Notes under the pieces: generated by a model
Told to the model about the DNA's origin: nothing
Database searches by the model: none
Seen by the model: only the letters and a program-made list of their open reading frames with translations
Made by a program: the position numbers and the translations under genes
Shown: piece after piece, positions 1 through 53,420 of the stretch
Layout: each line of letters starts with the position of its first letter
Position numbering within the stretch: position 1 is the first letter of the stretch
DNA from: the human T2T-CHM13v2.0 reference genome, Homo sapiens
Length of the DNA stretch: 64,000 nt
Assembly: GCF_009914755.1 (NCBI RefSeq)
Contig: NC_060948.1
Direction: 5' to 3' (one strand)

Positions 1-3000
1 GAAGGTGTAAGAATAAGAGTCACCACACTGAATATTAGGTTTGGTTATGTTCTCAGGTATATGGCACAATATCACCTGTAGCCAGAGAGAAGGCAAGAAA
101 GTCACATCAACTATGTATGTGTGGGTCCAGTAAAATGTCACAATACACTTTGTGGTAGGACCCTGGCAGAAGAGCCATATCATCTGGATGCTGCTTTCAG
201 TGATATATCAAAATCCACTATGAGGGCAGGACTTTGGAAAGAAAGGAGACTCACTTAGCCTAGGCAACTGACCCAAGTATACGTCACAATGGCCCTTATA
301 TGCAGTACCAAGTCTGGAGAGTGACCTTAACTACATGCTGTGTGCAGCAGTACATCACTATTTCCCTGTGGTCAGGACCCAGGAAAAATTGAAGAAGCAT
401 CACCTAGGTGCTGAGCCAAATGATATGTTCCAATTCTTCCTGTTTGCAGAGCTCAAAAACAAGAATCTCATCACCTGGGTGCAGTACCCAGTTATGTGTC
501 ATATAGCAGTGTAAGTGCAGGGCCAAGGCAGTAGAAGGGACTCACATAACTTATGTGATATGCCTAGATTTAAGACACAATTCTCCTTGTAGGCAGTTTT
601 CAGGCAGATAACTTACATCACTTGGGTGATTGTCCCAGTGACATATAAAAGTGCCCTTTGCAATGGGAGCTCTGGAAGCTGTTATATACGGCACGTAAGG
701 AATATATATGGTACAATTTAATCTGTGGCCTAGGAGTAGAAAAGAGTCAGATTATTCATATGCTAGGCAAAGTTGCCTCTCCTTTTTATGTTCTCAGAAA
801 GATTTGGAAATAAGTTTCACATCCCACAAAAGTATTTCTTCTGTGTATGTGATTCAATTTTTTCTGTGACTTGGGTTGAAGTAGAGGAGTCGCAATCTCA
901 ACAATGAGCAAGATGCATGTACAAGAGCCCCAATCACACTTGAAGATGGTTTTCCAGTAAGGGAGTCACAGCACTACAGGCATGTTGAATCATGGTTCAT
1001 ATGTTACTAAGTCACCTGTGAATGAGATCCACATATGAGAGTAATTATTTCAATCTTTCACTGCTTTTTATGTGTGAGATTTAGTACCTCATTCCTAGGC
1101 CCTGTTCATGTGTAAGAATGTCAATTGTGTCAGCTAAGTGTGCATGCAAGGGTCACATTGTCACCGCGTTGCTGGTTTCTGTTATTACACTCTTTGCATC
1201 ATTAAGGTTTTATATGATATACCTGAGTGTTATAATCCTTCATGAAATTTATACTAGTGAAAAATACAGGACTTTACCCATTGCCATAAGACTGGCTGTG
1301 AGAGTCTCTACTGGATTGGGCCAGGTATGAGAATTATTATTGTGCATGTGTGCTTAAACCACATATATGTCACAACTGGACCTGTGAGCAGAAAAAAAGT
1401 CAGGAGAGTCACATTACCTTGGTGCTGAGCCAGTTATATAGTATAATCTTATTTGTAGGCTGGGACCAATCAGAAGAGTCACATCACTTCACCTGGGTGC
1501 TGAGCCAGTGAAAGAGTGTATACTCATTTTTTGGCTTGGCCTAGTCAGAAGAGTCACATCACCTGGGTACAGCCTAAAATAGTATGTCACCAAGCCCATT
1601 GTGGACAGGAAAGAAGAAAATGAGGAATGTCCCACAACCTAGGTACTGAGCTCTGCAATATGTAATAATCTCTTCTCTTGAAAGAGTCTAGAATATGAAG
1701 GAGATCTACATCACCTAGGTATTGCAATCAGCAGTATGTCACAACTTCTATGGTGAGCAGGGCTCAGGCAGGAGAGGATAGTCAGATTTTCTAATTATTA
1801 AGTAAACTGATATTTCACAATGTCTTCTGGGGGCAGGGCACAAATAGGAGAGAAAAATCACCTAGCTTATGGGCCCAGAGATATGTGATAATATTCCCTG
1901 TTTTCAGGGTCAAGGTAGAAGAGTCACATTATTATAATTCTAACCCAGGGATATGTCACAATGAATCCATGGGAAGGAATTTAAGGCAAAAATCTCAACA
2001 TCTGAGTACTAGGCCTCATAATATGCCAGAACTCCTTGTCTTTCAGGGTGACATGATTTGCTGTGAGCTGGGTGTGAATATGAGAAACACAATCTCATGT
2101 GTTTCCAGGATCATTTGATGACACTCTACAGCTTTGAAAGGCTTTGTACAGCCTTCATGAGAATTGCAAACCACTGTGAGGCCTACATGGTTGTACAGAT
2201 TCATGATCTTACACATTACCCAAAAGAAAGATATAATAGTTAACATATCCTCTGTAGGCTGGGTTCAGAAATAATATCCATGATTTTCTTGAGAGCTGGA
2301 TCCAGAAATAAGTCACCATCCCATTTGTGGCCAGATCAACATATGAAGATCACAATTCCAACTTTGTACTCTATTCACTTTTAGACTCAGAAACTTAATA
2401 GTGGGCTTTGTACATGTGGGATGGTGACAACATTGCTTTCACCTGGGTATCTAATGGAGAGTCCAAATCTAAATTTTTGCTCATCTCTTTTATAAAACTC
2501 TCTGTACAACACAATAAATGTAGTCATCATGAGTTAATTTCTGTAAAGTTTTTGAATTTGATAGAAATATAAAACCCAGGACCTCATCTATTGCCCTAAG
2601 CCTAGTAATGAAATGTAAAATATATCCTATTGGCCGAATCACAGGATAGGTTTGTCCATCATGCCTGTGAACTGAAGTAAGGTATATGATATATTTACAT
2701 TTGTGGGCAAAAAAAAACTAGGCAGGAAGGTAACATCACTTACATGCTGTGACAAGCATCATGTCATAATGTCCTCTGTAAGAATGGTATATGAATTAGA
2801 GTCACATTAACTGGGTGTTGGATCCTGCAATATGACAAAATCCCATATGTGGAAACAAACCAACCTAGAAGTGAGAACAAAAATGCCAACAGAATGGGCC
2901 CAGGATATGTCAAAATATGTTCTGTGGCTTTGGGACAGGCATGAAAGTCACATTATTAGGGTGCTGGGCCCAGCAATATGCCACAACTCCCCATATATGT

Positions 3001-6000
3001 AGGACCCAGGCAAAAGAGTAACATTATCTGTGTGCTGGCCCCTGCAATAGTCAAAATTTTTGTTTTTCTATTAACATGAGTGTTGTGTTCAGCAATATGT
3101 CACAATCCTCTCATTGTAAAGACCAGGCAGGAGAAGAGATTCATTTCACTTAGGTCATGGTCTCAGAGATATATCCCACTGTTCTCTCCATGCAGGGATC
3201 AGGTAGAAAGAAGAGTCATATCACCTATGTGTTTCTCTAGTTAAATGTCACAATCTGACATGCAGGCAGAAACCAGGGAGAAGAGCCACATCACCTGGGT
3301 ACAGCCTCAAGTAATATGTCACCATGCCCAATGTAGACATGTTCAAAAAAAGAAAATCACACCACAAGAATTCTGGGCTCAATAATATGTAATAATTCCC
3401 TCTTTATACAGAGTCCATGACAAAGATTAGAGCCATATCACCTAGAATTTGTGCTCAGTGGTATGTCACAATTTCTTCAATGAACAGGATCCACGCAGGA
3501 GAGGAGAGTCATATTACCTAGATACCATATCTAGCAATATGTCACAGAGTCCCCTGTGAGCAGGGCACTGGCAGGAGAGAAATGTCACCTAGCCAATAGG
3601 CCCAGAGATATGTGAAAATAACTGTTGTTTGCAGGGCCAAGACAGAAGAGTCACATTATCATCGTTCTGATCCAGTGATAGGTAACACTGCCCTCATGGA
3701 AAGGAATTTAAACCAAAAAGTCTCAATACCAGTATACTTGGCCAAGGGATATGACATAATCTCATCTTTAAATGTGGCAGCATTTTAGCTGTTATCTAGT
3801 TATATATATGACAGTCACAAACTCCTGAGTGTCCTTGCCATTGTATGATACTCTCTACAACATCTGAAAACTTTATACAACACGCATGAGTGTTGCAAAA
3901 CTTGCTGAGTCCTACACACTTATATGGACTCATAATCTTCCATATTGCCATAAACCGAGGTATGTCAGGCAACATGTCTTCTATCGGCTGGCATCAGAGT
4001 TGAGACCATTATTAGGGCTGTGAGCTGGGTACAGAAATGGGATTCACCATCTCACCTGTAGTCAGATTCACTTATGAGAGTCACAATTTGAACTTTGGGT
4101 TGTATTGACTTGTTTGATTCAGGACCTCAACAATAAGCTTTGTAAATGTAGGATGTGAGCTAATGTTGTAAAATTCTGTGATCTTTGAACAAATGTGTAA
4201 TGGAGGACCTTAACTATTGACCAAAACCTAGGGGTGAGAGGCAAAATATCTCCTATTGGCTTAATCACACAGCGAACTTGATCATCATGTCTTTGAACTG
4301 AAGCAAGGCATATGTCATAATCTCATTTTTGGGGAAAGACTAGGCAGAAGGTTAACATCATTTAGGTGCTGTGCCAAGCAACTTATCCCAATGTCTTCTC
4401 CAGGCAGGGCCTAAGAAACGGAGTAACATTAACTGGGGGCTGGAACCCTCAATATGACACAAAACCATGTGGAAGAAACCCAGCAAACTGATCAGTGGCA
4501 AAATACATATAGAATGAGCCAAAGATGTGTCAAAATACTATCTGTGGCCCTGGCACAGAGAGAAGAGTCTCATCCTTAGGGTGCTGGGCCAAGCAATATG
4601 CCACAATTCCCTCTTTATGCATGACCTAGGCAGAAGAGTAACATTATCTGGGTGTAGGGTCCCGAAATACAGCAAAATTCCTGTTCATGGGCACTCTTTA
4701 GCAACAAGACAAGAGTCACACAACCTGAGTACTGGGCTTCTCAATATCTCACAGATCTCCGATTGTAAAAGCCCAGACAGAAGTGAGTCAAATTACTTAG
4801 ACTGTGGGTTCAAAGAGAGGACCCAATGTCTTTAGTAGGCAGGGCTAAGGCAAAAAAAGTGAATCATATCACCTAGGTGTTTTCTTTAAGTATACGTCAC
4901 AATTTAATGTGTGGGAAGAAACCAGGCTGAAGTGCCACATCACGTGGTCCTGGTTCCCAAGATATTCACAAATCCCCCTTAGAAAAGGACCCAGGCAAGA
5001 GAGTTACATCACCTAGGAGCAGGTTCCTCCCTGATGTTACAATGCTCCATGTGGGCAGCCCATGAAGGAATTCACATCATCTAGGTGATAGGCCTAGAGA
5101 TATGTCACATAACCTTCCTGAAAGCATGGCCCTGGCAAAAGAGTACCATAACCTTTGTGCCTCGTCTAGCAATATGTCACTATACAAGTGGGCAGGTTTC
5201 AAACAAAAAAGCCATATCATCTATATAATAGGCCCTGTAATATGTCATAATATTGTCTTTTATGCATGGTCGTGGAAAAAAAATCATCATTACCTGTGTG
5301 CCTTGCCTATGAATATGTCACTCTCCTGCCCTGTGTGTAGGGCCCATTCCAGAGAGGAAAGTTACATCACCTCAGTGGTGGACACATAATATGTCACAAG
5401 GTTGTCTAGGGGCAGGGAGCAGGCAAGAATGTAATGTCACCTAAGCACTGAATCCAATGATGTCACAATCCTTAATGAGATCAGGGCCCAGGCAGAAGTG
5501 TCACAAAACTTCAGTGTTGGCCCAGGTAAATATCAAAATCCTTTATGTAGGCTGGAACTAGTCTGAAGAGTGAAATCACAAAAGTGCATGGAAAAGCTTT
5601 ATATCACAGTCACGATAAAATAAAATTCTAGGGATTATTTTAAAATACCACATGTGTCTTGTTTTCATGTAGAACAGTAGCCTTTATCTTCTGTGATGGT
5701 AAAAATCTTTACAGTTAGCTAAGTGTTCATAAGAGACTCACAATTTACTCTTTATGAGAGGCCTTGTTATGACACTCTCCATAACTTAATGCCTTTATAA
5801 CTTAATGGTGTTATAAAATGTGTAAGTGTTGTAATCTTCTGTGACTTTGTTAATAGTAGGAGATGCTTGACATCACTCATGTCTCTAAACCTAGTTGTAA
5901 GAGTCAAAATTTTTCCTATTGACTGTGTCCACATATGAGAGTCATTGTCATGCCTGTTAGCTGTGTCCAGGTATATGTCACCATGCCCTCAGTGGTTATT

Positions 6001-9000
6001 AAACAGGGAGGACACAGCATTACCTAAATCCTAAGCCAGAAATATTCCAATGTACTCTTTGTAGGCAAGACTCTAACAGAGAAGTCACAGAATTTAGGTG
6101 CTATGCCCAGCTATATGGCATAATATCCCTTGTGGAGAGTGTCCAGGCAGGAGAAGAGAGTCATATCACCTACATGATGGATCCAGAGATATATCACAAT
6201 GCCTCCTGTTGTAATGACCCCAGAAAAGAGTCATATCATTTGGATGTAATGCTTAGAAATGCTACACTTTTCACTTTAAGCAGGGTTCAGTCAGGAGAGG
6301 AAAGTCACATAAGCTAGATGATATGTCCAGAGATATGTTATCATCCCTTCGGAGGGCATTGTTAAGACAAAAGTCAAATCACCAAAGTTTTGGCCCAGTT
6401 ATATGTAAAAATGTCTTATCTAGGCTATAAATAGGCAGGATTATTAAATCATTCAGTAGCTGGGCAAAAGTAAATGTCATAATAACACTTGTGGAAAGGT
6501 TCAGGGTTGAGAGTCACAATACTGTACATGTTGTGGTTCCTGGTACAAGAGTCATTATTATGCCTTTTATCTCGCTCACATATATGGCAGAGTATCACCT
6601 GTGGGGAGGGAGAGGAAACAAAAGGAGAGTTACACCACTTAAGTGGGTGCATGTCCAGTGAAATGTCACAATTCTCCTTGTAGGTTGGATTCTTGGAGAA
6701 GATTCAGTCAACTGGATGCTGGTTTCAGTGACATATCTAAATCCTCCCTGTTGGCAAGGCTTAGGCAGGAGAGGAGAGAAACTGCATATAGACACCTTGC
6801 CTTTATAAGTGTCAAAATGGCCCTTGTGTGTAGGATCAAGTCAGGAGAGTGACCTTACCTTGGTGCTGGGTTCAGCAATATGTCAAAGTCTCTCTGTTTG
6901 TCAGAGCCAAGGCAAGAGAGGAAACATCACCTAGGGCCTGAGCCATTTAATATGTTACAAAGCTTTTTATTGGCAGAACTCCCCTCAGAAAAGTTTCACA
7001 TCACCTGAGTGCAGTACCCAGTTGTATGTCACAATACACCATAAGTGTAGGGCCAAGGCAGTACAAGAAACTCACATCATTTACATGATGGACCTAGATA
7101 AAAGCCACAATGCTCTTTATAGCTAGGGTTTAGGCCAAGAGTTCACATCAGCTCACTGCTGGTACCAGTGATACATAAAATGCCCCTAGTTGCATTGCCA
7201 AAAAGTTGTTATACATTGCTTAAGTGCTGGTGCACATATGTCAGAATTTCTAGGTTTTCAGCCTAGAAAGATTACTCAAAATACTCAGATGCTGGACAAA
7301 GTCAAACTTCACAATCACACATTTGAAAATGTTCAGAAATAAATTTTACAGTCCCACACAACTGCTGGCTTTGGGTATGACAGTCAACACCTCCTATGAG
7401 TTGGGTCAAAGTAAAGGAGTCATAATCTCAACAATGGGCAAGATGCATGTGTAAAAGCCCCAACCACATTGAAGGTTGTGTTCCAGTAGGTTAGTCATGC
7501 ACCACAGGTCTGGAGAATCATGGTTTAAATGTCACCAAACCATCTGTGGATAAGACTCATGTACGACAGTAACAATGTCAAGCTTTGTCTCCTTATGTGT
7601 GTGAGATTTTGTAACTCATTTGTAGGCTCTGTTCATGTGTGAAAATTACAGCTGTGTCAGCTGAATGTGCATAATACCTAGTTGGTGGTGCCTGTTATGA
7701 CACTCTTTGTACCATGCAGATGTTATATGATACACCTGCATAGGATACTCTTGTCTGAATTTTATTGGGGGAGATCTAGGACTTCACCCATGGCCATAAA
7801 CTGGCTATGAGAGTCAAAATATCTCCCTTGGCTGGGTCCATGCATGAGAGTTATTATTGTGCATATCAGTTGAATCCAGGTATATGTTAGAATTTCATCT
7901 TTGGACTGAGACAGTATAGAAATGTCACATCATCTGGTGTCCTGAGTCAGAAATATATTAATCTTATTTTTAGGCAGCATCCAATCAGAAGAGTCATGTC
8001 ACCTGGGTACAGTCTCAAATAATATATCATCTTGACCACTGTATACAGGTTGAAAAAATAGAGGATAGTCACAGTCCCTAGGTGCTGGGCTCAGCAATAT
8101 ATTATAATTCCTTCTCATGGCAGATTCCATCACAAAGAGAAGAGTCATACCACCTAGGTTTTGCATTCAGTGGTATGTCACAATTTCTTAGGTAGGTGAG
8201 ATCCAGGCAGGAGAGGAGAGTCACATTACCTAGATGCTGTATCCAGCATAAGCTCAGTGTCCCCTGTGAGAGCGCACTGTGAGAGGAGAGACATATAACC
8301 TAGCTGATAGGCCAAGAGATATGTGACAATATCCCCTTCTGGCTGGATCCATGCAGAAGAGTCACCTTTTTATGATTCTAACCCAGCAATATTTCACAAT
8401 GCACCCACGGGAAAGAATTTAAGCCAAGAATCTCAACACTGGGGTGCTAGACTTTGTGATATAACACAATCACTTCATCTTTTAGTTGACACCTTTAACT
8501 GTTAGCTTGGTATGTATATAAGAGTCACAATCTCTTGTGTGTTCTAGGTCATCCTATGAGACTCTCTACAACATCTGAAGGATTTATCCAAAATACCTTA
8601 GAGTTGCAAGCCACTCTGAAGCCTACATACTTGTTTGACTCAAAACATACATATTGATATAAACCTTGTTATGATAATCGACAGATCTCTTATAGGCTGG
8701 TTTCAGACAGAAAACGCATTATGGTGCCTATAATCTGGGTCCAGAAATGAGTCACCATCTCATCTGTAGCAAGATCCACATATGAAAGTCACAGTTCCAT
8801 CTTTGTATTTTATTTACTTCTTAGAGTCAGAATTTCAACAGCGGGCTTTGTGAATATGGGATGCTAAAAACTTTTTCTCTCACCTGCATTTGTAATCAAG
8901 GGTCACGATTTTAATCTTTTGCTGGGCCCTGTTATAAAACACTGTGTACCACCCAAGTTTATAGAATATGAGTTAGTGTTGTAAACTTCTGTGAGCTTTG

Positions 9001-10650
9001 TACAAATATGAAACTCATAAACATAACTAGTGCCCTAAGCATAGTGATGAGAGGCAAAAATCTACTATTTGTGGAATGCCAATTATGTTTGATCATTATG
9101 TCACTGAGTTGAAGCAATGTAAATATCATGATCTCATTTTTAGAAAAAAACTTGTTGGAAGGGTAGCACAACTTATTTGCTGTGGCAAGCAATATGTCAC
9201 CAAACCCTCTCTAGGCAGGGTCTAGAAAGGAGGATTACATTACCTGGGTGCTGGAGTGCTAGACCCAGCAATATGACACAATCCCAAATGGGGAAAAACA
9301 AGCCCAAACAAATGAAGAGACCAAAAACGCCCACATATTGGGCCCAAGATATATAAAAATACTTTCAGTTGCTCTGGTACAAGCAGGAGAATTACACCAT
9401 GAGTGTGAGGGGCCAAGCAATATGCCATAATTGTCTCTTTCTGCAAGACCCAGGCAGAAATGGGACATCATCTGGGTGCTGTACCCTGCAATACATCAAA
9501 ATTTATTTTCATTGGCATGGTTTTGGGAAAAAAAAAAGAAGAGTCACTTTATCTAGGTATTGGACATAGCAAAACATCACACCACATCATTGTAAGGGAT
9601 CAGGTTGAATAAAAGATACACATGACATATGACACAGGCTTAGATATATGACCCAATGTCCCAAGTAGGCAGGGCTCAGTCAGAAGAGAAGAGTAATATC
9701 ACCTAGGTGCTTCCCTGGGTATATAACACAATCTAATATGTGAGGTGAATTCAAGCAGAAGAGTCACATCACTTTTATACTGGGTCCTGAGATATATCAC
9801 AATGCTCCCTTAGGACAGGACACATTTAGGAGAGTTACAACAAATAGTTACAGGTTTCAGGTTTCACATTTATGTTGCAATGCTCCATGTGGGCAGGACT
9901 CAAGCAGTGAATTATATCACGTAGACCCAGGCCAAGAGATTTGTCACAATGCCCTCTTTAGAAGTTCCTATCAAAGGAGTTCGAACACCTCTGTGCCTAG
10001 CACTCATACATCACTACACCACACTCTGTGCAGAGCCCAATCTAATGAGGAGAGTCATATCACCTGAGTGGCTGACAGAGTGATATGTCACAATAATTTC
10101 TGTGGGCATGGCTTAGGAAAAAAAGTAACATGATCTAGGTGCTGGATGTAATGATTTGTCATGATTCTTACTGGGAGAAAGGCCCAGGCAGGAGAGTCAT
10201 ACCACCTGAGGTTGGCCCAGGTGGGTACCACAATAACACATGTGGGCTGAAACCAGTGTAGGGATTCAAATCACACAGGTGCTTCACAAAAATTTAAATT
10301 ACAAACACACTGGCAGAACATTCCCAGGGTAAGATTTACAATAACACACATTACTTGTTTTGATAAGTGACAGTCATCTTCATATATTTGTGAAAATGAC
10401 ATTCCTTACTGTCATCTGACTCTGCATATGAGACTCACAATTTCACCTTTCTGCTGGGTTCTGTCATAAAACTCTCTGTATAAGCAGAGGACATTATAAA
10501 ATATCAGACTCTATTATAATCTTCTTTGAACTTTTTTATTACCAGAAAGAGACTGAATCACTCTTGTTTCAAAAGCAAGTTAAGAAAGTCAAAATTTCTT
10601 CTATTTGTGAGGTCTACATATGACAGTTATTATCATGCCTGTGAGATGCT
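1..10650 (+). repeat. Diverged beta-satellite (BSR/Beta, ~68-bp Sau3A family) array with higher-order structure
   Basis: Recurrent degenerate matches at ~68-72 bp spacing to the beta-satellite consensus (GATATGTCACAATGCCCCTGTAGGCAGAGCCTAGACAAGAGTTACATCACCTGGGT), e.g. tatgtcacaat and gagtcacatcacctaggtg throughout. One long unit at 1-6495 and a shorter unit from 6496 that is truncated at ~10650. Confidence 0.92.
1492..1763 (-). other. BPY2/VCY2-homologous segment inside the beta-satellite unit (non-coding paralogue)
   Basis: Minus 1608-1492 translates LSTMGLVTYYFRLYPGDVTLLTRPSQKMSIHSFTGSAPR and minus 1763-1690 translates ALLTIEVVTYC*LQYLGDVDLLHIL. These match my recollection of BPY2 (QSKVGLLTYYVKLYPGEVTLLTRPSIQMRLCCITGSVSR and VLLTEGIMTYCLTKNLSDVNILHRL). 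A stop codon is present and there is no complete ORF. Confidence 0.7.
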
Positions 10651-32285: not shown

Positions 32286-32845
32286 TACTCCTGAATAGAG
32301 AGGAGAGACATGCCACCTGTATTTTACATTCAGCCGTTTGTCACATTCCCTTTATGACACAGGCAGGAGAGGAGAGCTACTTTACCTAGATGCTAGTTTC
32401 ATTGATATTTCAAAATGTTCTCTGGGGGCAGGGTACAGACAGGAAAGAAAAACCACCTACACATCCAGTTTCAATTTTAAATTTGAGTTTTTCAAAAATA
32501 GAAAAAAAAAACAAAAAAGTTATGTAAGATATTAAGGGACCATGAAAAGCCTGACAAAAAATATTAGAATCATTACACATAAAAATTTCCAAACACACAC
32601 ACACAAATCTGCAGTAATCAAAGCACTTTGGTACTGGTATAAAGGTAGAATACCAAAGTAATTAAATAGAATGTGGCACAGACATATACTCTTGAATAGA
32701 GAGGAGAGACAGCCACATGTCACATTTCCTTTGGGCTTAGGACACAGGCAGGAGAGGAGAGCTACATTACCTAGTTGCTAGTTTCAGTGATATTTCAAAA
32801 TGTTCTCTGGGAGCTGGGCACAGGAAGGAGAGAAAAACCACCTAG
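32045..32845. repeat. ~0.4-kb tandem duplication spanning the L1/beta-satellite junction
   Basis: tttcaattttaaatttgagttttcaaaaatag...aaaaaccaccta occurs at ~32045-32459 and again at ~32460-32845. Confidence 0.9.
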
Positions 32846-33217
32846 GGAAAGACCCAGATATATGTGATAATATCCTCTGTTTACTGCACCAGGCAGAAGA
32901 GGAACATTATTATGATTCTGACCTGGTGATATGTAACAGTGCACCCATGGAAAGCAATTTGAGGCAAAATGTCTCAACACCACTGTACTAGACCCTGTGA
33001 TATGACACAATCCCATCATCTTTGAGGATGACAGGTTTAACCTTTAGTTGAGAATGTATATTAGAGCCACAATCTCACATGTGTGCTCGACCAATACAGG
33101 ACACTATCAAAAACATCCAAGGGCTTTATAAAACCTGTATCAGAGTTTCAAACCTCTCTGAGGCCCAGGTGTTCATTGCCCTAAACCCAGTTATGACACT
33201 CAACATCTGTTCTATAG

Positions 33218-33546
<329 letters not shown>

Positions 33547-35537
33547 GGAACACCCATTATCATGCTTGTGGACTCAGTTCAGAAATGAGTTACCATCCCA
33601 CCTGTGTCCAGATCCACATAAGGAGGTCCAAATTCCAACTTTGTGATGTATTTCCTCATTAGACTCAGAACTTCTACAGTGGGCTTTGTAAATGTGGGAT
33701 GGTGACAACTTTAATTTCATCTGGGTTTGTAAACAAGAGTCCCAATCTGAACTTTTTGCTGGGCCCTGTTATAAAACGCTCTACCACCAGAGTTTATACA
33801 ATGTAAGTTAGTGTTATAAACTTCTGTGAGCTTGGTAAAAATATGCAACCCAGGACTTTACCTATTGCCCTAAGCCTAACACTGAGAGGAAAAATATTTT
33901 TTATTGTCTGAATCCCAATGTAAGTTTCATTATCATGGCTGTGAACTGAAGAAAGGTATATGTCATCATCCCATATATGAGCAAAAAATTAGTCAGAAGG
34001 GTAATATCACTTAGATGCTATGTCAGGGAATATGTAACAATGCCTTTTCTAGGCATGGTACAAGAAATTGGGTCAAATTAACTGAGTCCTAGACCTGTCA
34101 ATATGACACCACCCCACATGTGGAAAAAAAACAGCCAAGTTATGAGAGCCAAAACACCTACATAATGGGCTTAAGATATGTCAAAATACTTTCATTCGCT
34201 TGAGCTCAGGAAGAAGAGTCACATCATAGAAGTGCTAGGCCCAGCAATACACGGTATGTCATAATTTTCTCTTTATGCAGAAGCAAGGTTGTAGAGTGAC
34301 ATCATCTGTGTTATGGGCCCTGCAATAGGTCAAAATTCATTTCATTGTGGCATAATTCAGGAAAAAAGGGAGAGTCACATATTGTGGGTGCTGGGCTGAG
34401 TAATGTGCCAAAATCCCCCTATTGTGAAGTCCCAGGCAGAAAATGAGTCACAGCACTTAAGTCATAGGCTCAGAGATGTGTCATAATGTTCCCAGTATGC
34501 AGGGCTCAGGCAAGCAATGAGAGCCATATCACTTACGTACTTCCCTTGGAAGATGTCACAAGCCAACATGTGGTCAGAAATCAGACAGAATAGTCACATC
34601 ACTTGGCTACTGTATCCTGAGATATGGCACAAGAATCTCTTAAAACAGCACCCAGCAAAGAGTTATTTCACCTAAGTGCAATTTCTCTGCTTATGCCACA
34701 ATGTTCCATGTGGGTAGGGCCCAAAAAATGGGTCATTTCACCTAGAAGATTGTCCAGAGATATATCACAAGACCCTCTATGTGGCATAGCCCTGAAAAAA
34801 GAGTACTACTACCTGTCTGCCTGGCCAAGAAATATTTCAATCTCAAGTTTGGCAGGGCCCAAGCAGGAGAGCTACATACCCTAGGTGATAGGTCCAGAGA
34901 TATGTCAAAATGCAGTCCTTTGGGCATGGCTCTGGCAAAAGAGTATCCTTGCCTGTGGGTCTGGCTTGGCAATATGTCACTATACTTCCTTTGTGCACGG
35001 CCCATTCTGGAGAAAAGAGTTACATCACCTATGAGGTGGACACAGAAATATGTCACAATGATTTGGGTGGGCATGGCACAAGCAAGAATGTAACATTAAC
35101 TGGGTGCTAGATCCAGTGGTATATTGCAATCCTTACTTGGAGAAAGGCCCAGATAGGAGAGTCGTATCACCTAGAGTTTGGCCTAGGTAGATATCATAGT
35201 CCCATAGAACCATTCTGCATAATCAAATTATAAAGGAGTTTCGCAAAAATTTATATCATGATCACATTTTCAGAAAATTCCAAAGGTGAGATTTACAATA
35301 CCACACATCTTGCTTTTATGTGTGACAGCTGGCTTAATCCATGTGAGATAATGACAGCCCTTACTCACAGCTTTGTGTGTTTACAGGACTCACAAATTCA
35401 CCTGTGTGTTGAGTCTGTATAATCTAAAGACTTTGTAAAATATGTGTGAGTGTTGTAATCTTTTGTGCCTCTGCAGAAGATTGTGATCCAAGACATCATG
35501 CCTGTCCCTAAAGTTAGTTATGAGTCAAAATATTCTC

Positions 35538-36062
<525 letters not shown>

Positions 36063-36614
36063 TTTTTTCTCTATTGGCTGAGTCTACATATGAGATTCAT
36101 TATCATTCTTGTGAGCCATGCCTAGGTATATGTTACAATACCCTCTGTGGTTATGAAGCAGGCAGAACAGCTACATCACCTAAATTCTGGGCTAGAAATA
36201 CTTCAATATTCTCTTGGTAGACACGGTGCTATCAGAAATTTTACCTATCTTGTGTGCTAGGTTCAGCTCTGTGCCACAATGTCCTTTGTGGGCAGTGTGG
36301 TAGGACGGGAGAGTTATGTAACCTAAATGATTGGCCCAAACATATGTCACAATGCCACCTGTTTGCAGGGCCCAAACAAGAAATTCATATCATTTGGATG
36401 CAATGTTTAGAAAAGCTAAAATTACCAAAGGAAGCAGGGTTCAGGCAGGAGAGGAGAGGCATGTAACCTAGAAGATGTGTCCATAAATATGTTACAATCT
36501 CCCCCTGAGGACATTGTTAAGATAGCAAAGAGCAATCACTAATATATGTGGCACAGCTATTTGTCAAAAACTCATTTATGAGCTCTACCTAGGCAGCAAT
36601 ATTAAATCACTCAG

Positions 36615-37200
36615 TGTTGCAGAAACCAGCCCCACACCACCCAGCAGGTTCCCTGAGTCCAGCGGAGACAAAGGAGTTAGAAAGAAACAGAATAAGCATT
36701 TAAAAGGTTCATCCAGGGGACCAGAGCATCGGAGGATTGCTCACAGCCCTGAGCACTTTGGCTCTGCCTAATGAATTGGTTTACAAGCTATTTATTCTTA
36801 GGTCAGATGGGAGGGGTAGGAAGGGATAAGAAAAGGAATAATCAATGAAGGAGAACTCATGAGTCATTCAATAAGATGTATAGCATTGGAGATTTCTGTG
36901 AATTTCTTTGAACAAAGGCATGTGTCTAAACTACTTAAGATGTTTAACCTATCTGGACTGAAATGGGTGGGAATGGGTTTCAGGAGGAGCCACGATGTAA
37001 GATTATACTCCATTACTTCGAGGGAATGCTATCTCCCTGATCAACCTGTGGAAAGCCACGGAGCTGTTATGCTCTTGGGGCATAAAGACATGAAGGCAAT
37101 AAGAAGACATTTCTCCTCAGAGGTCACCCATGGCTTCCCATGGGTGTGTCACACAGAGGAGACCAACCCATCTGGCACCCCAGAAACTCTCTTTCCCACA
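36615..37200 (-). mobile_element. Solo LTR, LTR14C-like (HERV-K14C)
   Basis: 586 bp with TG...CA ends. Minus strand starts tgtgggaaagagagtttctggggtgccagatg. 6-bp TSD actcag (36609-36614) / attcag (37201-37206). Confidence 0.82.
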
Positions 37201-40200
37201 ATTCAGGAGCTGGGCAAAAGTACATGTCACAATTACACTTGTGGAAAGGTTTAAGAATAAGCATCAGCATCCTGCACCTGTCTTGAAGCCAGGCATATGA
37301 GTTGTTATTAGGCTTTTGTTATTATCTCTGTTTTATTGCACAGTATCATCTGTGGTGATAAAGAAGTCAAGAAAGTCACCTCACCTATGTCGAGATGGCG
37401 CCAGTGAGATGTCACATTCCACCTTCTGGGCAGGACCCTGGCAGAAAAGTCACATCACCTGTATGCTGATTGCAGTGGCATATCTAAAATTCCTCTCTCG
37501 GCAGCACTCTAGAAAGAGAGGAGACTCATTTAACCTAATCAATTAGCCTACATATATCTCACAATGTCTGTGATGTGCAGTACCAATGCTGGAGAGTGTC
37601 TTCACATTGTTTCCAGCCCCAGCAACATGTCACAATCTTCCTGTGGTCAGGTCCCAATCAAAAGTGAAGAAACATCACATAGGTGCTGAGCCAAGTGAGA
37701 TGTTACATCACTTTCTGTTGACAGAACCCAAAAAGGAGAATCACATCACCTATGTGCAGTACCCAGTTATTGTCACAGTGCACTGTGAGTGAAGGACTAA
37801 TGCAGTAGAAGGGATTCACATCACTTATGTGGTAGACCTAGATATGAAACACAATTCTCTTTGGAGGAGGTTTCAAGCAGATAATTCTCATCACCTGGGT
37901 GATGGTCCAAATGATGTATAAAATTGCCATTTGTAGGCAGAGCCATGAAAGTTGTAATATATTGCTAGGTTGCTTGTTCCACATAGGGCATAATTTCTTC
38001 TGTGGTCCAGTCCTAGAAAAAAGAGTCAAATTATTCATATGCAGGACAAAGTTACCTGTCACAATCACTATCTCAGAAAGTTTTAGAAATAACTTTCACA
38101 TCGCACATAAGTCTTGGTTTTGTGTATGTGAGTCAACACTTTCTATGAGTTGGTCAAAGTATATGAGACACAATCACAACAATGGGCAAGATTCATGAAT
38201 AGGAGGCCCAATCTCATTTGAAGATTGTGTTCCAGTAGGGTAGTAACAGCCTTACCAGTGTGTTGAATCATTCATCATCAAAAGACCCATGAAATTCTCT
38301 ACTACCAAAGAGTTTATACAATATAAGTTAGTGTTGTAAGCTTCTGTGAGCTTGGTAAAAATATAAAACCTAGACCTAATCTAATCCCCTAAGATTAACA
38401 CTGAGAAGCAAAAGATATGCTATTGGCTGAATCCTAATATAAGTTTGATCATCATGCCTGTGAACTGAAGAAAGCTATATGTCATAATACCACATGTGGA
38501 CAAAAAACTAGGGAGGAGGGTGATATCGTTGAGTTACTGTGCCATACATAACATCATAATATCTTCTCTAGGTATGGTATAAGAAATTGGGTCACATTAA
38601 CTGGGTGTTGACCAAGCAATATGACATCATTCCACATGTGGAAAAAAACCCAACCAAGTTGTGATAGCCAAAACACCTACATAATTAGGCTAAGATGTCA
38701 AAATACCTTCACTGGCTCAAACACAAGCAGGAGAGTCACATCATAAGGGAGCTGGGCCTAGCCATATGCAATATGTCATCATTTCCTTTCTATGCAGAAC
38801 CAAAGCAGAAGAGTGATATCATCTGGGTTATGGGCCCTGTAAAAGGACAAAATTCCTTTTTTGTGGATACAGTTCAGGAAAAAGGGGAGAGTCACATATC
38901 ATGAGTGCTAGGCTCAGCAATGTGCCAAAATACTCCAACTGTGAAGGCCCAGGCAGAAAATGAGAGTCACATCATTTAGATCATGGTCTCAGAGATATGC
39001 CCCAATGTCCCCAGTATGCAGGCCTCAGGCAGAATAGGAGACCCGTATCACCTAGTTGCTTCCCATGGATTGTATCACAAGGTATCAGGTGGGCAGACAT
39101 CAGACGACAGAGCTACGTTACTTGGGTGTTGGGTTCAGAGATATGTCACAGGATCTCTTAGGACACCACCCAAGTTAGAGATTTACATCATGAACATGCA
39201 TGTTCTCTGCTTATGCTGCAATATTCCATGAGTTGGGCCCCAAGGAGGGAGTCACTTCACCTAAGTGACAGATAGGCCCAGAGATATGTCAGTCACAAAG
39301 TCATCTATGAAGCATAGCCCTGGCAAAAGGGTACCATCAACTGTGTGCCTGGATTAGAAACATGTCACTCTTCAGGTTGGGAGGGCCCAAGCAGGAAAGC
39401 CACATCACCTAGGTAATAGGCCGAGAGATGTACTAAACTGCCCTCCTTAAAGCATGGCTCTAAGGATGGTACTCTGGCAAAAGAGTACCATTTCCTGTGT
39501 GCCTGGGCTTTCATTATGTAACTATCCTTTCTTTGTATAGGGCCTATTTCAGAGAGGATTTACATCACCCATGTGGTGGACACAAAAAACTGTTACAATG
39601 GTTTTGGTAGGCATGGAGCTGGCAAGATTGTAACATCGTGTGGATGCTAGATCCAGTGATATATCACAACACTTACTTAGAGAAGGGCCCAGGGAGTAGA
39701 GTCACCTCACCTTGAGGTTGGGCTAGGTAGAAATCAAAATCCCACATATGCCTGGAACAAGTGTGGAGAGTCAAATTACTCATGTGCTTGGCAAAAATTA
39801 ATATCACAATCATACTGTCAGAAAATTCCAAAGATGAGATTTATAATATCACAAATGTCCTGTTTTCATGCGTGACATTTGACTTCATCTATGTGTGATG
39901 AGGACAGTCCTTACTGTCACCTGGGTGTGCATACAAGACTCACAATTTCACCTGTGTCCTGAGCCCTGCTTTTACTCTGTCTGTAATAACTCAAAGACTT
40001 TGTAAAATATGTGTGAGTGTTGTAATATTTTGTAACCTTTGTACAAAAAAGGTAATTTAGGACATCAAGCATGTCCCTAAACCTAGTTGTGAGTCAAAAT
40101 GGCATCTATTGGCTAAGTCTACATATGAGAGCCATTATCATGCCTGTGAGCCATTCCTAGGTATATATTACAATCCCCCCTGTAGTTTTGAAGCAGGCAG

Positions 40201-42126
40201 AACAGTCTCATCACCTAAATGCTGGCCCAGAAATATTCCAATTATCTTTATGTAGGCAGGGTTCTGTCAGAAATGTCACTTAAATTCTGTACTAGGTCCA
40301 GCTCTGTGGCACAACATCCCATGTTGGCAGTGTCCAGGCAGGAGAGGACTGTCATATCACCTAAATCATGGGCCCCAAAACATGTTGTGATGCCTCTTGT
40401 TGACAGGTCCCAGGGAAGAATGTCTTATCATTTGGATGCCAAGTTTAGAAATGCTCCAATTACCAAAAGAATTAGGGTCCAAGCAGGAGAGGAGAGTCAT
40501 GTAACCTAGACAATAGCTCCAGAAATATGTTACAAGTCTCATGAGGACATTGCTAAGATAGTACGTTAAATCACCAAGGTGCTTGCCCCAGGTATTTGTC
40601 AAAATCTTATTTGTGAGCTATACCTAAGCAGTATTACAAAATCACTCAGGAACTGGACAAAGGTATATGTCACAATTCCAATGGAAAAGTTTAATAATAA
40701 AAGTCACCACCCTGAAAATGTCCTGGATTTTGGCATATTAGTTGTTAATAGGCTTTTTTTAATGGTCTCAGGTATATGACACAATATCACCTGTGGCAGA
40801 CAGAAAGTAAGAAACTCACATCACCTACATGGTTGTGGGTCCAGTTAGATGTCACAATCCACCTTGTGGGCAGAACACTGGCAGAAGAGTCACACTACCT
40901 GGATACTGGTTTTAGCAACATAGCTAAACCCCTTCTGTGTGCAGGACTTTGGCAAGAAAGGAGACTCACTTTACCTAGGCAATTGACATAGATATATTTC
41001 ACAATGTCTGTAAAGTTCAGTACCAAGCCTGGAGAGTGACTTCACCTTTGTGCTGGCTCAAGCAATATCTAACAATATCTCTGTGGTCAGAACCCAGGCA
41101 AAAGCAAAAAAACATCACCTATGTGCTGAGCCAAGTGACATGTTACAATGCTTCCTGTTGGCAGTACCCAAAAAACAGAATCACATAATCTGGGTACAGT
41201 TTCCAGCTACATGTCACAATGCACTGTAAGTACAGGACCAAGGCAGTAGAAGGGAGTCACATCACTTAGGTGATGGACCTAGATATAAGACACACTTTTC
41301 TTTGTATGCAGGTTTCAGGCAGATAATTCACATCACCTGGGTGATGGTCACAGTGATTTATAAAAGTGAACTCTGTAGGCAGAGCCAAGGCATATGTTAC
41401 CTATTGCTTAGGTGTTTTTCCTCATATGGCACAATTTTATCTGTGGTCTGGTCCTAGAAAAGTGAGTCAAATTATTCATGTGCTGGGCAATTACACTCTC
41501 AGAATCATTCCGAAATAAGTTTCACATCCCACATAAGTGCTGGATTCATGTATGTGATTCAATACTTTCTGTAAGTTGTGTCAAAGTAGAGGGGTCACAA
41601 TCTCAACAATGGGCAAGATTCATGTATAAGAGCCCCAATTTCAATTGAAGATTGTGTTTCAGGAAAGGAGTCACAGCCCCACAGGTGTGATGAATCAAGG
41701 TTCACATGTTACCAAATCACTTGTGAATCAGAGCCATGTATGAGAGTAGTTACTTAACCTTTGGCTGCTTTTTAAGTGTGAGATTCAGTACCTCATATAT
41801 AAGCGCTGTTCATGTGTGAGAAAGACAATCATGTCAGCTCTGTGCACATATGATGGTCACAATCTCACCTCGGTGATGGCCTCTGTTATGAAACCCTTTG
41901 TCCCATTGAGGTTTATATGATATACTTTAGAGTTATAATTTTTCTAGAAACTTATAATTGTAAAAATCCCAGGACTTTATCCATGACTGTGAGACTGGCT
42001 ATGAGAGTCAAAACATCTCTACTGACTAGGTCCAGGAATAAGACTTTTTATTGTGCATGTTTGTTTAACCCAGGTATATGTCACAATCTTGGCTGTGAGC
42101 AGAGACAAGACAGGGGAGTCTCATCA

Positions 42127-42243
42127 CCTGGGTGCTGAGCCAGTGACACAATATAATCTCATTTGTAGGATGGGCCTAGTTAGCAGATTCACATCACTTG
42201 GGTAAATCGTCAAAGAGTAAGTCATCAAGCCCACTATAGACAG
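42127..42243 (-). other. Second BPY2-homologous segment in the satellite unit
   Basis: Translates LSIVGLMTYSLTIYPSDVNLLTRPILQMRLYCVTGSAPR, 23/39 identical to recalled BPY2 residues 63-101. Confidence 0.7.
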
Positions 42244-42266
42244 GGTAGAAGATGAAGAGGAGAGTC

Positions 42267-42568
42267 CACTGGGTGCAGTAGCTCATGTGTGTAATTGCAG
42301 CACTTTGAGAATCCAAGGCAGGCAGATCACGAGGTCAAGATTTTGTGACTAGTCTGGCCAACATAGTAAAACCCATTCTTTACAAGAAAGACAATAATTA
42401 ACTAGGCCTGGTGGCAAGCACCTGTAATACCAACTACTCAGGAGGCTGATAAATGAGGATCACATGAATCCTAAAGATGGAGGTTGCAGTATTTCGAGAT
42501 TGTACCTCTGCACTCCAGACTGAGGTACAGTGTGAGACTCTGTCTCAAAACAAAGACAAAAACAAAAG
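42267..42568 (+). mobile_element. AluS (diverged)
   Basis: ctgggtgcagtagctcatg...cagatcacgaggtcaaga...gagactctgtctcaaaa, with TSD-like agaagatgaagag / agaagacgaagag. Confidence 0.9.
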
Positions 42569-45500: not shown

Positions 45501-47190
45501 AGGGTCACATTAGTTGATGGCAGGAGCAAGCAAAATGATACAACCACACATGAAAGAAAGCCAACAAAGTGGTCAGAGACAAAAAAAACCTACAGAATAA
45601 ACCAAAGATATGTTAAACTACCTTCTGTGGCTCTGGCATAGGCAGAAGAGTCATATCATTAGGGAGTTGGGTGGAGCAATATGCTATAATTTTCTCTTTA
45701 TGCACGACCTATGAAGAATAGTAACATCATGTGTGGGCTGGGCCTGAAATATGGCAAAAGTCCTTTTCATGGGTGCTATTCAGCAACAAGTTGAGAGTCA
45801 CATTACCTAAGTGCTTGGCTTATCCATATGTCACAGTCTTCCTATTGTAAAGGCCCAGAGATAAACAGAGACTCACATCACTTAAGTCATGGGCTCAGAG
45901 ATATGGCCCAATGTCACCAGTAGCCAAGGCTCAGGCAGAAAGAGGGAGTCATATTACATAGGTGCTTCTTTATTTAGATATCACAAATTAATATAAGGGT
46001 AGAAACCACGTTGAAGAGCCACATGATCTGGTCCTGCATCCCGAGATGTTCACAAGTCCCCCTTAGAACAGGACCCAGGAAAAAGACACATCACCTAGGT
46101 GTAAATTCCACCCTTATATCATGAAGTTCCTTGTGGACAGGGCCAAGCAGGAAGTCACATCACCTAGGTGATAGGCTCAGATATATGTCATAAAGCCTTC
46201 TTTAAAGCATCACCCTGGCAAAAGAGTACAATCACCTTTTTGCCTGGCCTGGCAATGTGTCACTATTCAAGTGGGCAGGTCCCAAGTAGAAAAGCCATAG
46301 CACCTATATGATAGGCCTGTGATATGTCAAAATGTCCTCTTTTGTGCATGGCCCTGGCATCCTCTTTTAAGTGATGGACACAGTGATAAGTCACAATGAT
46401 ATCTGTGGGCATAGTGAAGGCAAGAATGTAATGTCATCTTGGTGCTGGATCCAGTGATGTCACAATTTTTACTGATAGCAGAGACCAGGAAGAAGAGTCA
46501 TATCACTTCAAAATTGGCCCAGGTAGATATCAAAATTCCATATATAGGTTGGAACCAATCTGAAGAATGAAATTACACAGGTGCTTGGGGAAGATTTATA
46601 TCACATTCACAGTGTAATTAAATTCAAGGGATTAGATTTACAATACTACACATGTCCCGTTTTTAGGTAGGATAGTTGCTCTCATTCATCTTTGATGTTG
46701 AAAGTCCTTACTGTTATTTGAGTATGCATATGAGTGTGCATCATAATTTTCTCTGTGTGCTAGACATTATTATGACAGCTTCTATATAGCCCAAGGGTGT
46801 TATAAAATATCTGTGTTTGTTATAATTTTCTGTGACCATTTTATCAGAAGAAGATCCTTGACAATACTCATGTTGTGACAAAAGTCAAAATTTATCTTAT
46901 TGGCTGGGTCCCCATATTACAGTCATTATCATGTTTGTTAGCTGTGCATAGGTAAATGTCACCATTACCTCTGTGGTTGTTAAGCAGGGAGGACAATCAC
47001 ATCACCTAAATTTTAAGCCAGAATTTTTCCAAAATTCTCTTTGATGGCAAGAGTCTAACAGAAAATTCACAAGACATGGGTGCTAGGCAAAGCTCTATGT
47101 CATAATGTCCCTTGTGGTGAATGTCCAGGAAGGAGAGTAGAGTCATATTACCTAAATCATGGCCCCAGAGATATGTCACAATGCCTCCTG

Positions 47191-53346: not shown

Positions 53347-53420
53347 AGGCAGAGGTTGTAGTGAGCCGAGACTGCAGCACTGCACTGCAACCTAGGTGAC
53401 AAAATGAAAGAAAAAGAAAA
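53347..53420 (+). mobile_element. Severely 5'-truncated Alu with TSD
   Basis: ggcagaggttgtagtgagccgaga...ggtgacaaaatg plus A-tail, flanked by aaatgctacaatcccca / aaacattacaatcccca. Confidence 0.88.

What the first reader, a model, noticed from the sequence alone, without database searches (positions are those of the whole stretch)
1492..1763. Beta-satellite unit translates antisense into BPY2/VCY2-like peptide: a testis gene possibly built from satellite DNA
Seen: minus 1608-1492 reads LSTMGLVTYYFRLYPGDVTLLTRPSQKMSIHSFTGSAPR and minus 1763-1690 reads ALLTIEVVTYC*LQYLGDVDLLHIL. Both lie entirely within degenerate 68-bp monomers; the PGDVTLL codons are the reverse complement of the monomer core agaagagtcacatcacctggg. 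Recalled from memory, not searched: BPY2 residues 63-101 are QSKVGLLTYYVKLYPGEVTLLTRPSIQMRLCCITGSVSR (23/39 identical, ungapped) and residues 27-51 are VLLTEGIMTYCLTKNLSDVNILHRL (12/25). The similarity ends at a donor-like CAG|GTGAAG. Inference: most of the BPY2 coding sequence was exonised from one copy of this satellite higher-order unit, and the copies here are its non-coding sisters. BPY2 has been proposed to be a de novo gene, but I do not know whether a satellite origin has been described explicitly.
Basis: partly seen in the sequence, partly recalled or inferred. Interest (0 to 1): 0.85.

Follow-up and report, generated by a model that had tools for sequence, protein, structure and literature searches.

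The report
BPY2 gene built from beta-satellite
This stretch of the Y chromosome is a non-coding sister copy of the testis gene BPY2, and both are made of decayed beta-satellite repeats read backwards, so a protein-coding gene seems to have been assembled out of satellite DNA.

Summary
Window minus 1608-1492 and 1763-1690 translate as stated. They lie fully inside repeats that a profile built from canonical 68-bp beta-satellite arrays on chr1 recognises (272 of 272 bases; 131 window hits at E<1e-3, 0 in 5 shuffles).

I rebuilt the BPY2 coding sequence from the same genome: 4 exons, GT-AG introns, 106 codons. All satellite hits in that 20-kb locus are antisense to the gene. They cover 190 of 321 coding bases with the canonical profile and 274 of 321 with a family profile trained elsewhere.

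All six BPY2 splice junctions fall on three fixed positions of the antisense monomer, and those positions carry AG or AG|GT in most canonical monomers.

Window minus 9016-33 is a collinear paralog of the BPY2 coding unit at 74-77% identity. Its start is ATA, it has frameshifts, and it has lost three splice sites.

Corrections:
- Monomers are 71 or 76 bp, not 68.
- The exons span several ~1.7-kb units, not one.
- The second peptide matches BPY2 only at monomer level.

Six literature searches pairing BPY2, VCY2, its chr8 homolog or 8q11 with satellite terms found no statement of a satellite origin.

The parts
1492..1608 (-). Open 39-codon frame that is the positional paralog of BPY2 coding exon 3. 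The exon-equivalent part is 1598-1493. The donor-like CAG|GT is kept and the acceptor AG reads AA.
   Evidence: Nucleotide identity is 84 of 106 with no indel. Peptide identity is 24 of 39.
1690..1763 (-). The neighbouring monomer read in the same frame, with one TGA. It resembles BPY2 exon 2 only because both are the same kind of monomer. Its positional counterpart in BPY2 is intronic.
   Evidence: It matches L009 4765-4839 at 60%, with the same stop. It matches exon 2 (L009 1961-2032) at 50%.
33..9016 (-). Collinear non-coding paralog of the BPY2 coding unit.
   Evidence: Identity is 74.5-77.1% over blocks of 4968, 2757 and 1480 columns.
6489..6558 (-). Counterpart of BPY2 exon 1 (approximate ends). 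The first ATG reads ATA, there are 5-nt and 3-nt deletions, and TGA stands where BPY2 has TTA.
   Evidence: This agrees with the disablers that Cao 2015 describes for other copies.
4291..4410 (-). Counterpart of BPY2 exon 2. The acceptor is kept, the donor GT reads AC, and there is a 2-nt insertion.
   Evidence: Nucleotide identity is 87 of 118.
717..735 (-). Counterpart of BPY2 exon 4 (approximate ends). The acceptor AG reads AC.
1409..1562 (+). A 75-bp tandem duplication of one monomer (2.1 copies), shared with the copies at chrY 23797727 and chrY 8153318.
   Evidence: 75-nt longer exon 3 region in these three copies; clade support 1.0.
54..10279 (+). Block of degenerate beta-satellite-like monomers, interrupted every ~1.3-1.8 kb by stretches of ~0.4-0.7 kb that the profile does not recognise.
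32298..55435 (+). Second beta-satellite-like block in the same orientation.
55640..63973 (-). Beta-satellite-like block in the inverted orientation.
42127..42243 (-). Second BPY2-exon-3-like open frame in the window (56% identical to the first, no stop).

Best explanation
What the window holds. Window 1-10.3 kb is a non-coding paralog of the BPY2 coding unit, read on the minus strand. It belongs to the Yp copy of the AZFc 'green amplicon', the copy that also carries the pseudogene BPY2DP.

What it is made of. This unit, BPY2 itself and their relatives on chr8 (47.0-47.3 Mb) and chr7 are an old, decayed array of beta-satellite-like monomers. The monomers have stretched from 68 bp to 71 or 76 bp. 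They are organised in ~1.7-kb units and in larger duplicated blocks.

How BPY2 relates to it. BPY2 is transcribed antisense to these monomers. The antisense strand of a beta-satellite monomer already carries three useful signals:
- two pyrimidine-rich ..TCTAG| and ..CTACAG| acceptor-like sites;
- one ..CCAG|GTGATGT donor-like site;
- a frame reading ..GIVTY......GDVTL.. that in the local family consensus runs 46 codons without a stop.

Proposed route (inferred). BPY2's four coding exons were cut out of such monomers at exactly these positions, so exon 2 and exon 3 each encode one copy of the monomer peptide. A few changes in one copy then joined the pieces into a 106-codon frame: an ATG in the GTGATG core, a GG-to-GT donor for exon 1, indels that set the frame, and a TAA.

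Shown here: the satellite homology, the antisense orientation, the exon and splice-site mapping, and the broken state of the window copy.

Inferred: the order of the enabling changes, and that the ancestral unit never coded.
For: 1. Canonical reference. A 26-nt motif finds 219 genomic sites against 0 for the reversed control. Among the 100 places listed, the hits are on chr1 128.1-128.6 Mb, chr3, chr5, chr9, chr13 and chr14. In the four of the twelve chr1 loci run through TRF (L011, L014, L018, L022) the period is 69 by TRF, the consensus units are 67-69 nt, and the consensus carries GATC.

2. Homology. The trimer profile of 120 chr1 monomers gives 131 window hits at E<1e-3. It gives 0 in 5 shuffles.
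- In the 20-kb BPY2 locus it gives 91 hits, all on the minus strand, covering 10656 of 20000 bases.
- The family consensus (71 nt) shares 56 identical positions with the canonical one (68 nt).

3. Exon coverage.
- Canonical profile: e1 0/78, e2 65/118, e3 106/106, e4 19/19.
- Family profile, trained only on window 30001-64000: e1 31/78, e2 118/118, e3 106/106, e4 19/19.
- The family profile gives 100 hits, all antisense, and 0 hits in 10 shuffles.

4. Splice-site mapping.
- The e2 and e3 donors map to the same monomer position.
- The e2 and e4 acceptors map to a second position.
- The e3 acceptor and the e1 donor map to a third.

5. Those positions in the monomer sets.
- Donor GT: 104 of 120 canonical and 124 of 205 local monomers.
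- Acceptor AG at the ..CTACAG| site: 92 of 120 and 90 of 205.
- Acceptor AG at the ..TCTAG| site: 74 of 120 and 22 of 205.

6. Antisense consensus translation. It reads ..RGIVTYLCTDHPGDVTLV* for canonical and ..EGIVTYFWAQHLGDVTLLPGP.. for local monomers. BPY2 e2 holds EGIMTYCLTKNLSDVNIL and e3 holds VGLLTYYVKLYPGEVTLL.

7. Window copy. It is collinear with the BPY2 unit at 74-77% and is disabled.

8. Tree of 24 exon 3-exon 4 segments (SH-like supports).
- BPY2 is sister to BPY2DP (1.0).
- The window copy groups with chrY 23797727 and chrY 8153318 (1.0).
- chr8 copies are interleaved among the chrY copies.

9. Pre-existing frame. The majority consensus of the 23 paralogs of exon 3 is open and 26 of 34 identical to BPY2.

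10. Agreement with print. The exon 1 and exon 4 features match the text of Cao 2015: ATG against ATA, TTA against TGA with an upstream indel, and TAA against AAA.
Against: - Exon identification. No annotation tool gave me the BPY2 exons. I inferred them from GT-AG logic, the 106-aa length in Cao 2015 and the agreement listed above.
- Exon 1. The first 47 nt, including the ATG, lie outside every significant satellite hit. Their likeness to the monomer's GTGATG core is by eye only.
- Internal repeat. BLASTP finds no alignment between the exon 2 and exon 3 peptides, so the repeat is not significant at protein level.
- Coverage. With the family profile 28% of the BPY2 locus stays unrecognised, in gaps of 197-494 bp. 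The units therefore also hold something that is not recognisably satellite.
- Family features. The local monomers have lost the GATC site and the 68-bp length.
- Splice mapping. Profile coordinates of the acceptors differ by about 2 columns from my direct count against the consensus. The sameness of the positions does not depend on this.
- Selection. I found no sign of protein-level constraint in exon 3. BPY2 differs from the paralog majority in 2 synonymous and 8 non-synonymous codons.
Confidence: 0.85

Rival explanations
1. The window copy and its relatives are decayed pseudogenes of an old BPY2-like coding gene that was amplified. Coding came first, and the repeat structure is gene amplification rather than satellite.
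For: Of the 29 genomic matches to the 39-mer, 17 have no stop. The majority consensus of exon 3 paralogs is open. Splice-like sites are shared by many copies.
Against: - The open frame and the splice-like sites are properties of the canonical satellite consensus itself, on chr1 where no such gene lies.
- The periodicity is 71 or 76 bp across tens of kilobases, on both sides of the exons and in the introns.
- The copies differ from BPY2 in the way Cao 2015 describes for non-coding homologs in apes, monkeys and marmoset: ATA at the start and AAA at the stop.
- Codon differences show no constraint.
Confidence: 0.05
2. The local 71- or 76-bp repeat is an unrelated tandem repeat family, and its likeness to beta satellite is chance or convergence.
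For: It has a different monomer length, no GATC site and 0.2-0.7-kb unrecognised spacers. TRF at default settings does not call an array here.
Against: - A profile made only from chr1 arrays gives 131 hits at E<1e-3 in the window, down to E 3.8e-19. It gives 0 in shuffles.
- The two consensus sequences share 56 identical positions of 68, in the same order along the whole monomer.
Confidence: 0.03
3. BPY2's 106-codon frame is not a functional protein. The locus would be a testis non-coding transcript spliced out of satellite DNA, like its chr8 homolog BEYLA, so no gene was 'built'.
For: - No Pfam family matches the exon 2 and exon 3 peptides.
- Exon 3 has 2 synonymous against 8 non-synonymous codon differences from the paralog majority.
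[quoted passage not shown] It detected no selection signatures in the five gene families shared among great apes.
Against: Cao 2015 (Results text) cites western blot and immunostaining of the protein in testis, and the binding partners MAP1S and UBE3A. I did not see those primary papers. Three copies in AZFc score alike.
Confidence: 0.15

Closest known systems
De novo origin of VCY2/BPY2 from non-coding autosomal sequence (Cao et al. 2015, PMC4370482)
   Same: The gene, paralogs and disablers are the same. These include chr8 BEYLA, chr7, BPY2DP and the 8.5-kb duplicate in the 5'UTR. The conclusion that the sister copies are non-coding is also the same.
   Different: That paper never uses the words satellite, RepeatMasker or tandem (0 occurrences each). 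It treats the precursor as generic non-coding DNA. Here the precursor is identified as antisense beta-satellite-like monomers, and the splice sites are mapped to monomer positions.
Canonical beta satellite (Sau3A family, BSR; 68-bp monomers on acrocentric short arms and chromosomes 1, 3, 9, 19 and Y; review PMC8125562, section 2.4 read)
   Same: Monomer sequence homology holds along the whole unit. The arrangement is head-to-tail, with higher-order periodicity.
   Different: The local monomers are 71 or 76 bp, lack the GATC site and are about 30% diverged from each other at the ~1.7-kb unit level. They are interrupted by unrecognised spacers. They lie in euchromatic segmental duplications beside ZNF736 and TRIM60 pseudogenes.
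Complex beta-satellite structures in the 19p12 zinc-finger gene cluster (Eichler et al. 1998; seen only as a reference-list entry, paper not retrievable)
   Same: Beta-satellite blocks are interleaved with KRAB zinc-finger genes. Here ZNF736P7Y sits between beta-satellite-like blocks.
   Different: I could not read the paper. No coding exon made of satellite is known to me from it.
Exonisation of interspersed repeats such as antisense Alu (recalled general knowledge, no call)
   Same: A repeat whose antisense strand carries latent splice signals supplies exons.
   Different: Here the source is a tandem satellite. It supplies nearly the whole coding sequence of a gene, not one cassette exon.

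Membership tests
Beta satellite (BSR / Sau3A family) | Sequence homology of the monomer to canonical beta satellite | tested here: met
   A profile from 120 chr1 monomers gives 131 window hits at E<1e-3 and 0 in 5 shuffles. The consensus sequences share 56 identical positions of 68.
Beta satellite (BSR / Sau3A family) | 68-bp monomer length | tested here: not met
   Spacing modes are 71 bp (55 of 195) and 76 bp (34 of 195). Only 6 of 195 spacings are 68 bp.
Beta satellite (BSR / Sau3A family) | Sau3A (GATC) site in the monomer | tested here: not met
   GATC is present in the canonical consensus and absent from the local consensus.
Beta satellite (BSR / Sau3A family) | Head-to-tail tandem arrays with higher-order repeats | tested here: met
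   Of the adjacent monomer spacings, 195 fall within 55-95 bp. Nested periods are ~1.63-1.76, 3.1, 4.8, 6.5 and 9.66 kb. The arrays are interrupted by unrecognised gaps of 197-494 bp.
BPY2/VCY2 protein-coding gene (for the window copy) | Intact 106-codon frame with ATG, four exons and GT-AG splice sites | tested here: not met
   In the window copy ATG reads ATA, there are frameshifts in the exon 1 and exon 2 counterparts, and three of six splice dinucleotides are lost.
BPY2/VCY2 protein-coding gene (for the window copy) | Positional homology to the BPY2 unit | tested here: met
   Window minus 9016-33 is collinear with the BPY2 unit at 74-77%.
BPY2/VCY2 protein-coding gene (for the window copy) | Testis-specific transcription | not testable with these tools
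   No expression data are available here.
De novo gene from non-coding DNA (for BPY2) | Non-coding homologs with shared disablers in paralogs and outgroups | tested here: inconclusive
   Human paralogs carry disablers. Only BPY2 and BPY2DP, 2 of 24 rows, have the TAA at the BPY2 stop position. Outgroup species were not available, so that part rests on the text of Cao 2015.
De novo gene from non-coding DNA (for BPY2) | Evidence that the new frame is translated and functional | not testable with these tools
   Only citations inside Cao 2015 were seen.

The most novel reading that the evidence does not exclude
The antisense strand of a beta-satellite monomer may be a ready-made exon module. It carries two acceptor-like sites behind pyrimidine runs, one AG|GT donor-like site, and a frame that stays open whenever monomer length is a multiple of three or splicing skips the junction.

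Decayed beta-satellite arrays in transcriptionally permissive testis chromatin would then act as a nursery. Spliced transcripts and new reading frames would arise from them repeatedly.

This would explain several things:
- BPY2 itself.
- The spliced non-coding relatives on chr8 (BEYLA) and in the green amplicon.
- The report that bonobo and human BPY2 proteins come from separate genomic regions.
Probability: 0.35. Interest if true: 0.75.

Novelty: new variant of a known kind. Interest (0 to 1): 0.62.

Why it matters
BPY2 is one of the few Y-linked, testis-specific genes with no homolog. It lies in AZFc, the region most often deleted in infertile men. Its de novo origin from non-coding DNA is in print, but the nature of that DNA is not stated in anything I could search.

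Showing that the precursor is antisense beta satellite gives a concrete mechanism for gene birth. The repeat itself supplies splice signals and an open frame, so only a handful of changes are needed.

It would be a rare documented case of a classical tandem satellite supplying nearly a whole coding sequence.

It also has practical consequences:
- The BPY2 protein is partly an internal repeat of a satellite-encoded peptide.
- Dozens of near-open sister frames exist on Y, chr8 and chr7.
- Probes, antibodies and read mapping for BPY2 can therefore cross-react with those sisters.

Tried and rejected
- TRF at default settings calls only a 75-bp, 2.1-copy repeat at 1409-1562 and no array. Relaxed TRF and lag autocorrelation were needed to see the 71- and 76-bp periods.
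- The canonical profile does not reach exon 1 (0 of 78). A search limited to 800 bp gave only a weak neighbouring hit at E 0.0073.
- BLASTP of the exon 2 peptide against the exon 3 peptide found no alignment at E<=100.
- Pfam gave 0 families for the three 39-residue peptides.
- Codon-position counts against 18 paralogs (128/102/175) are not independent, and I draw nothing from them. Five rows with gaps were skipped there. The first attempt skipped every row.
- Genome DNA searches score only 40 of 218-256 candidates. I therefore cannot say whether this divergent family also occurs on chr19 or elsewhere.
- Altemose 2022 and Eichler 1998 could not be fetched.
- No structure or complex prediction was tried. 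The spliced protein is not a letter-for-letter translation of a locus, and a fold would not bear on the origin.
Full report
**1. The observation**

The two translations are exact. Minus 1608-1492 is an open 39-codon frame. Minus 1763-1690 has one TGA. The codons for PGDVTLL are the reverse complement of agaagagtcacatcacctggg at 1545-1565. The frame ends at CAG|GTGAAG.

**2. Finding BPY2 without typing it**

The genome that holds the window can be searched. The 39-mer finds 29 places at E<=0.001: 23 on chrY, 5 on chr8 and 1 on chr7. Of these, 17 have no stop. Each of the three AZFc amplicon copies holds three hits.

Around it, GT-AG logic gives four exons of 78, 118, 106 and 16+3 nt:
- exon 1: L023 9821-9898
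- exon 2: L009 1958-2075
- exon 3: L009 4930-5035
- exon 4: L009 5728-5746

Together they make 106 codons and one terminal stop. That is the length Cao 2015 gives in its Table 2 footnote.

The exon features agree with that paper's text:
- ATG where other copies have ATA
- TTA where others have TGA, next to an indel
- TAA where the chr8 copies have AAA

These coordinates are still an inference. No annotation tool confirmed them.

**3. Is it beta satellite?**

A 26-nt motif hit 219 genomic sites, against 0 for the reversed control. Among the 100 places listed, the hits are on chr1 128.1-128.6 Mb, chr3, chr5, chr9, chr13 and chr14. In the four of the twelve chr1 loci run through TRF (L011, L014, L018, L022), TRF gives arrays of up to 44 copies with period 69, consensus units of 67-69 nt, and a consensus carrying GATC. 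This matches the definition of beta satellite in the review PMC8125562 (section 2.4).

From 120 chr1 monomers I built monomer and trimer profiles.
- In the window, the trimer profile gives 131 hits at E<1e-3. It gives 0 in 5 dinucleotide shuffles. It covers 16788 of 64000 bases, including all 272 bases of the finding.
- A family profile was grown only on window 30001-64000. It has a 71-nt consensus with 56 positions identical to the canonical 68.
- Local monomer spacing peaks at 71 bp (55 of 195) and 76 bp (34 of 195). Only 6 of 195 spacings are 68 bp, and the GATC site is gone.

So this is a diverged relative of beta satellite. It fails two textbook features, length and Sau3A site, and it passes homology and tandem order.

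**4. BPY2 exons against the satellite**

In the 20-kb BPY2 locus all hits are antisense to the gene.
- Canonical profile: 91 hits, 53% coverage.
- Family profile: 100 hits, 72% coverage, and 0 hits in 10 shuffles.

| Exon | Canonical profile | Family profile |
|---|---|---|
| 1 | 0 of 78 | 31 of 78 |
| 2 | 65 of 118 | 118 of 118 |
| 3 | 106 of 106 | 106 of 106 |
| 4 | 19 of 19 | 19 of 19 |
| Total | 190 of 321 | 274 of 321 |

The ATG end of exon 1 is the weak spot. It sits between two strong hits. By eye it resembles the GTGATG core of a monomer, but no test supports that.

**5. Splice sites**

I mapped the six junctions onto the family profile.
- The exon 2 and exon 3 donors share one monomer position.
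- The exon 2 and exon 4 acceptors share a second.
- The exon 3 acceptor and the exon 1 donor share a third.

The junction contexts line up with the antisense canonical consensus ..TCTTGTCTAG|GCTCTGCCTACAG|GGGCATTGTGACATAT....CACCCAG|GTGATGTAAC.

Frequencies at these positions in the monomer sets:

| Signal | Canonical monomers | Local monomers |
|---|---|---|
| Donor GT | 104 of 120 | 124 of 205 |
| AG just before the donor | 95 of 120 | 114 of 205 |
| AG of ..CTACAG| | 92 of 120 | 90 of 205 |
| AG of ..TCTAG| | 74 of 120 | 22 of 205 |

The profile numbering of the acceptors is about two columns off my direct count. The coincidence of positions is not affected.

Among the 23 non-coding paralogs, the exon 3 acceptor AG is kept in 10, the exon 3 donor GT in 14 and the exon 4 acceptor in 14. 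These are my counts from the table. These signals are therefore old and belong to the repeat. They are not BPY2 inventions.

**6. Reading frame**

The antisense consensus reads ..RGIVTYLCTDHPGDVTLV* for canonical monomers and ..EGIVTYFWAQHLGDVTLLPGPCPQRAL* for local ones. BPY2 exons 2 and 3 each contain one such motif in the same monomer frame. BLASTP does not find this internal repeat.

The majority consensus of the 23 exon 3 paralogs is open and 26 of 34 identical to BPY2. BPY2 differs from it in 2 synonymous and 8 non-synonymous codons. I see no sign of constraint, but the sample is small.

**7. What the window copy is**

Window minus 9016-33 is collinear with the BPY2 coding unit at 74.5-77.1%. 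It is equally close to the duplicate in BPY2's 5'UTR (74.7%).

The positional counterparts of the exons are disabled:
- Exon 1, about 6558-6489: ATA at the start and two deletions.
- Exon 2, 4410-4291: donor AC and a 2-nt insertion.
- Exon 3, 1598-1493: acceptor AA, donor kept, no indel.
- Exon 4, about 735-717: acceptor AC.

It resembles exon 2 only as one monomer resembles another.

In a tree of 24 exon 3-exon 4 segments, BPY2 pairs with BPY2DP (support 1.0). The window copy pairs with chrY 23797727 and chrY 8153318 (support 1.0). Those three share a 75-nt monomer duplication. chr8 copies are interleaved. The spacer at 2008-2726 is 86% identical to chrY 23796624.

The window copy lies 37.8 kb from the BPY2DP exon 3 homolog. 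The chrY 23797727 copy lies 35.4 kb from BPY2 exon 3 (coordinates). The window is therefore the Yp counterpart of a unit upstream of BPY2.

**8. Repeat architecture**

Self-alignments give offsets of ~1.63-1.76 kb at 68-70% identity, then 3.1, 4.8, 6.5 and 9.66 kb, the last at 76%. The BPY2 exons span 5.9 kb, which is several basic units.

**9. Literature**

| Search terms | Papers found |
|---|---|
| BPY2 + 'beta satellite' | 0 |
| BPY2 + 'beta-satellite' | 0 |
| BPY2 + satellite | 31 |
| VCY2 + satellite | 3 |
| LINC00293 / BEYLA / satellite | nothing relevant |
| 'beta satellite' + 8q11 | 0 |

Of the 31 papers, I checked passages in four. None links the gene to a satellite.

Cao 2015 has 0 occurrences of satellite, RepeatMasker and tandem. 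I read its Results parts 1, 2 and 4. Tomaszkiewicz 2023 has 0 occurrences of satellite. I read its abstract and passages.

Subscription papers, supplements and genome-browser repeat tracks were not searchable, so the point may be known informally. According to the hub's note, NCBI's masking covers only 13% of this window and lists no masked stretch in 1-20000. That suggests routine masking does not flag these monomers.

**10. Verdict**

It is a new variant of a known kind: de novo gene birth, here from a classical satellite.

Noticed in passing
window 20919-21786: An 84-bp tandem periodicity (about 10 copies, 63% matches) lies inside the annotated ZNF736P7Y pseudogene. This is the zinc-finger repeat itself. 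The pseudogene sits in the 22-kb gap between the two beta-satellite-like blocks.
   Followed up: no
window 55435-55640: The beta-satellite-like monomers switch strand here, from plus before to minus after. An inversion junction therefore lies inside the window, next to the interspersed repeats masked at 56546-60889.
   Followed up: partly
window 2008-2726 and similar gaps at 653-1345, 3697-4388 and 8447-9162: About 0.7-kb stretches recur between monomer blocks and are not recognised by the canonical satellite profile. The one tested is found only on chrY 7.47-8.15 Mb, AZFc, chr8 47.0-47.27 Mb and chr7 56.8/65.58 Mb, among the 40 of 256 candidates that were scored. Whether it is very decayed satellite or a separate element is open.
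   Followed up: partly
window 27280-27498; 22726-22895 and 28590-28756: There is a 111-bp tandem duplication. There are also two separate 91-92-bp, two-copy repeats with similar consensus units about 5.9 kb apart. All lie outside the satellite blocks.
   Followed up: no
L009 5060-5075 (chrY 23833259-23833274): About 25 nt after the exon 3 donor of BPY2 there is another monomer-phase acceptor-like site, ..CTGCTTACAG|G, followed at once by TGA. If used after exon 3 it would give a 101-codon frame. This is only a sequence observation.
   Followed up: no
window 35824-36065: AT-rich simple repeat, (AT)n and derivatives, about 240 bp.
   Followed up: no
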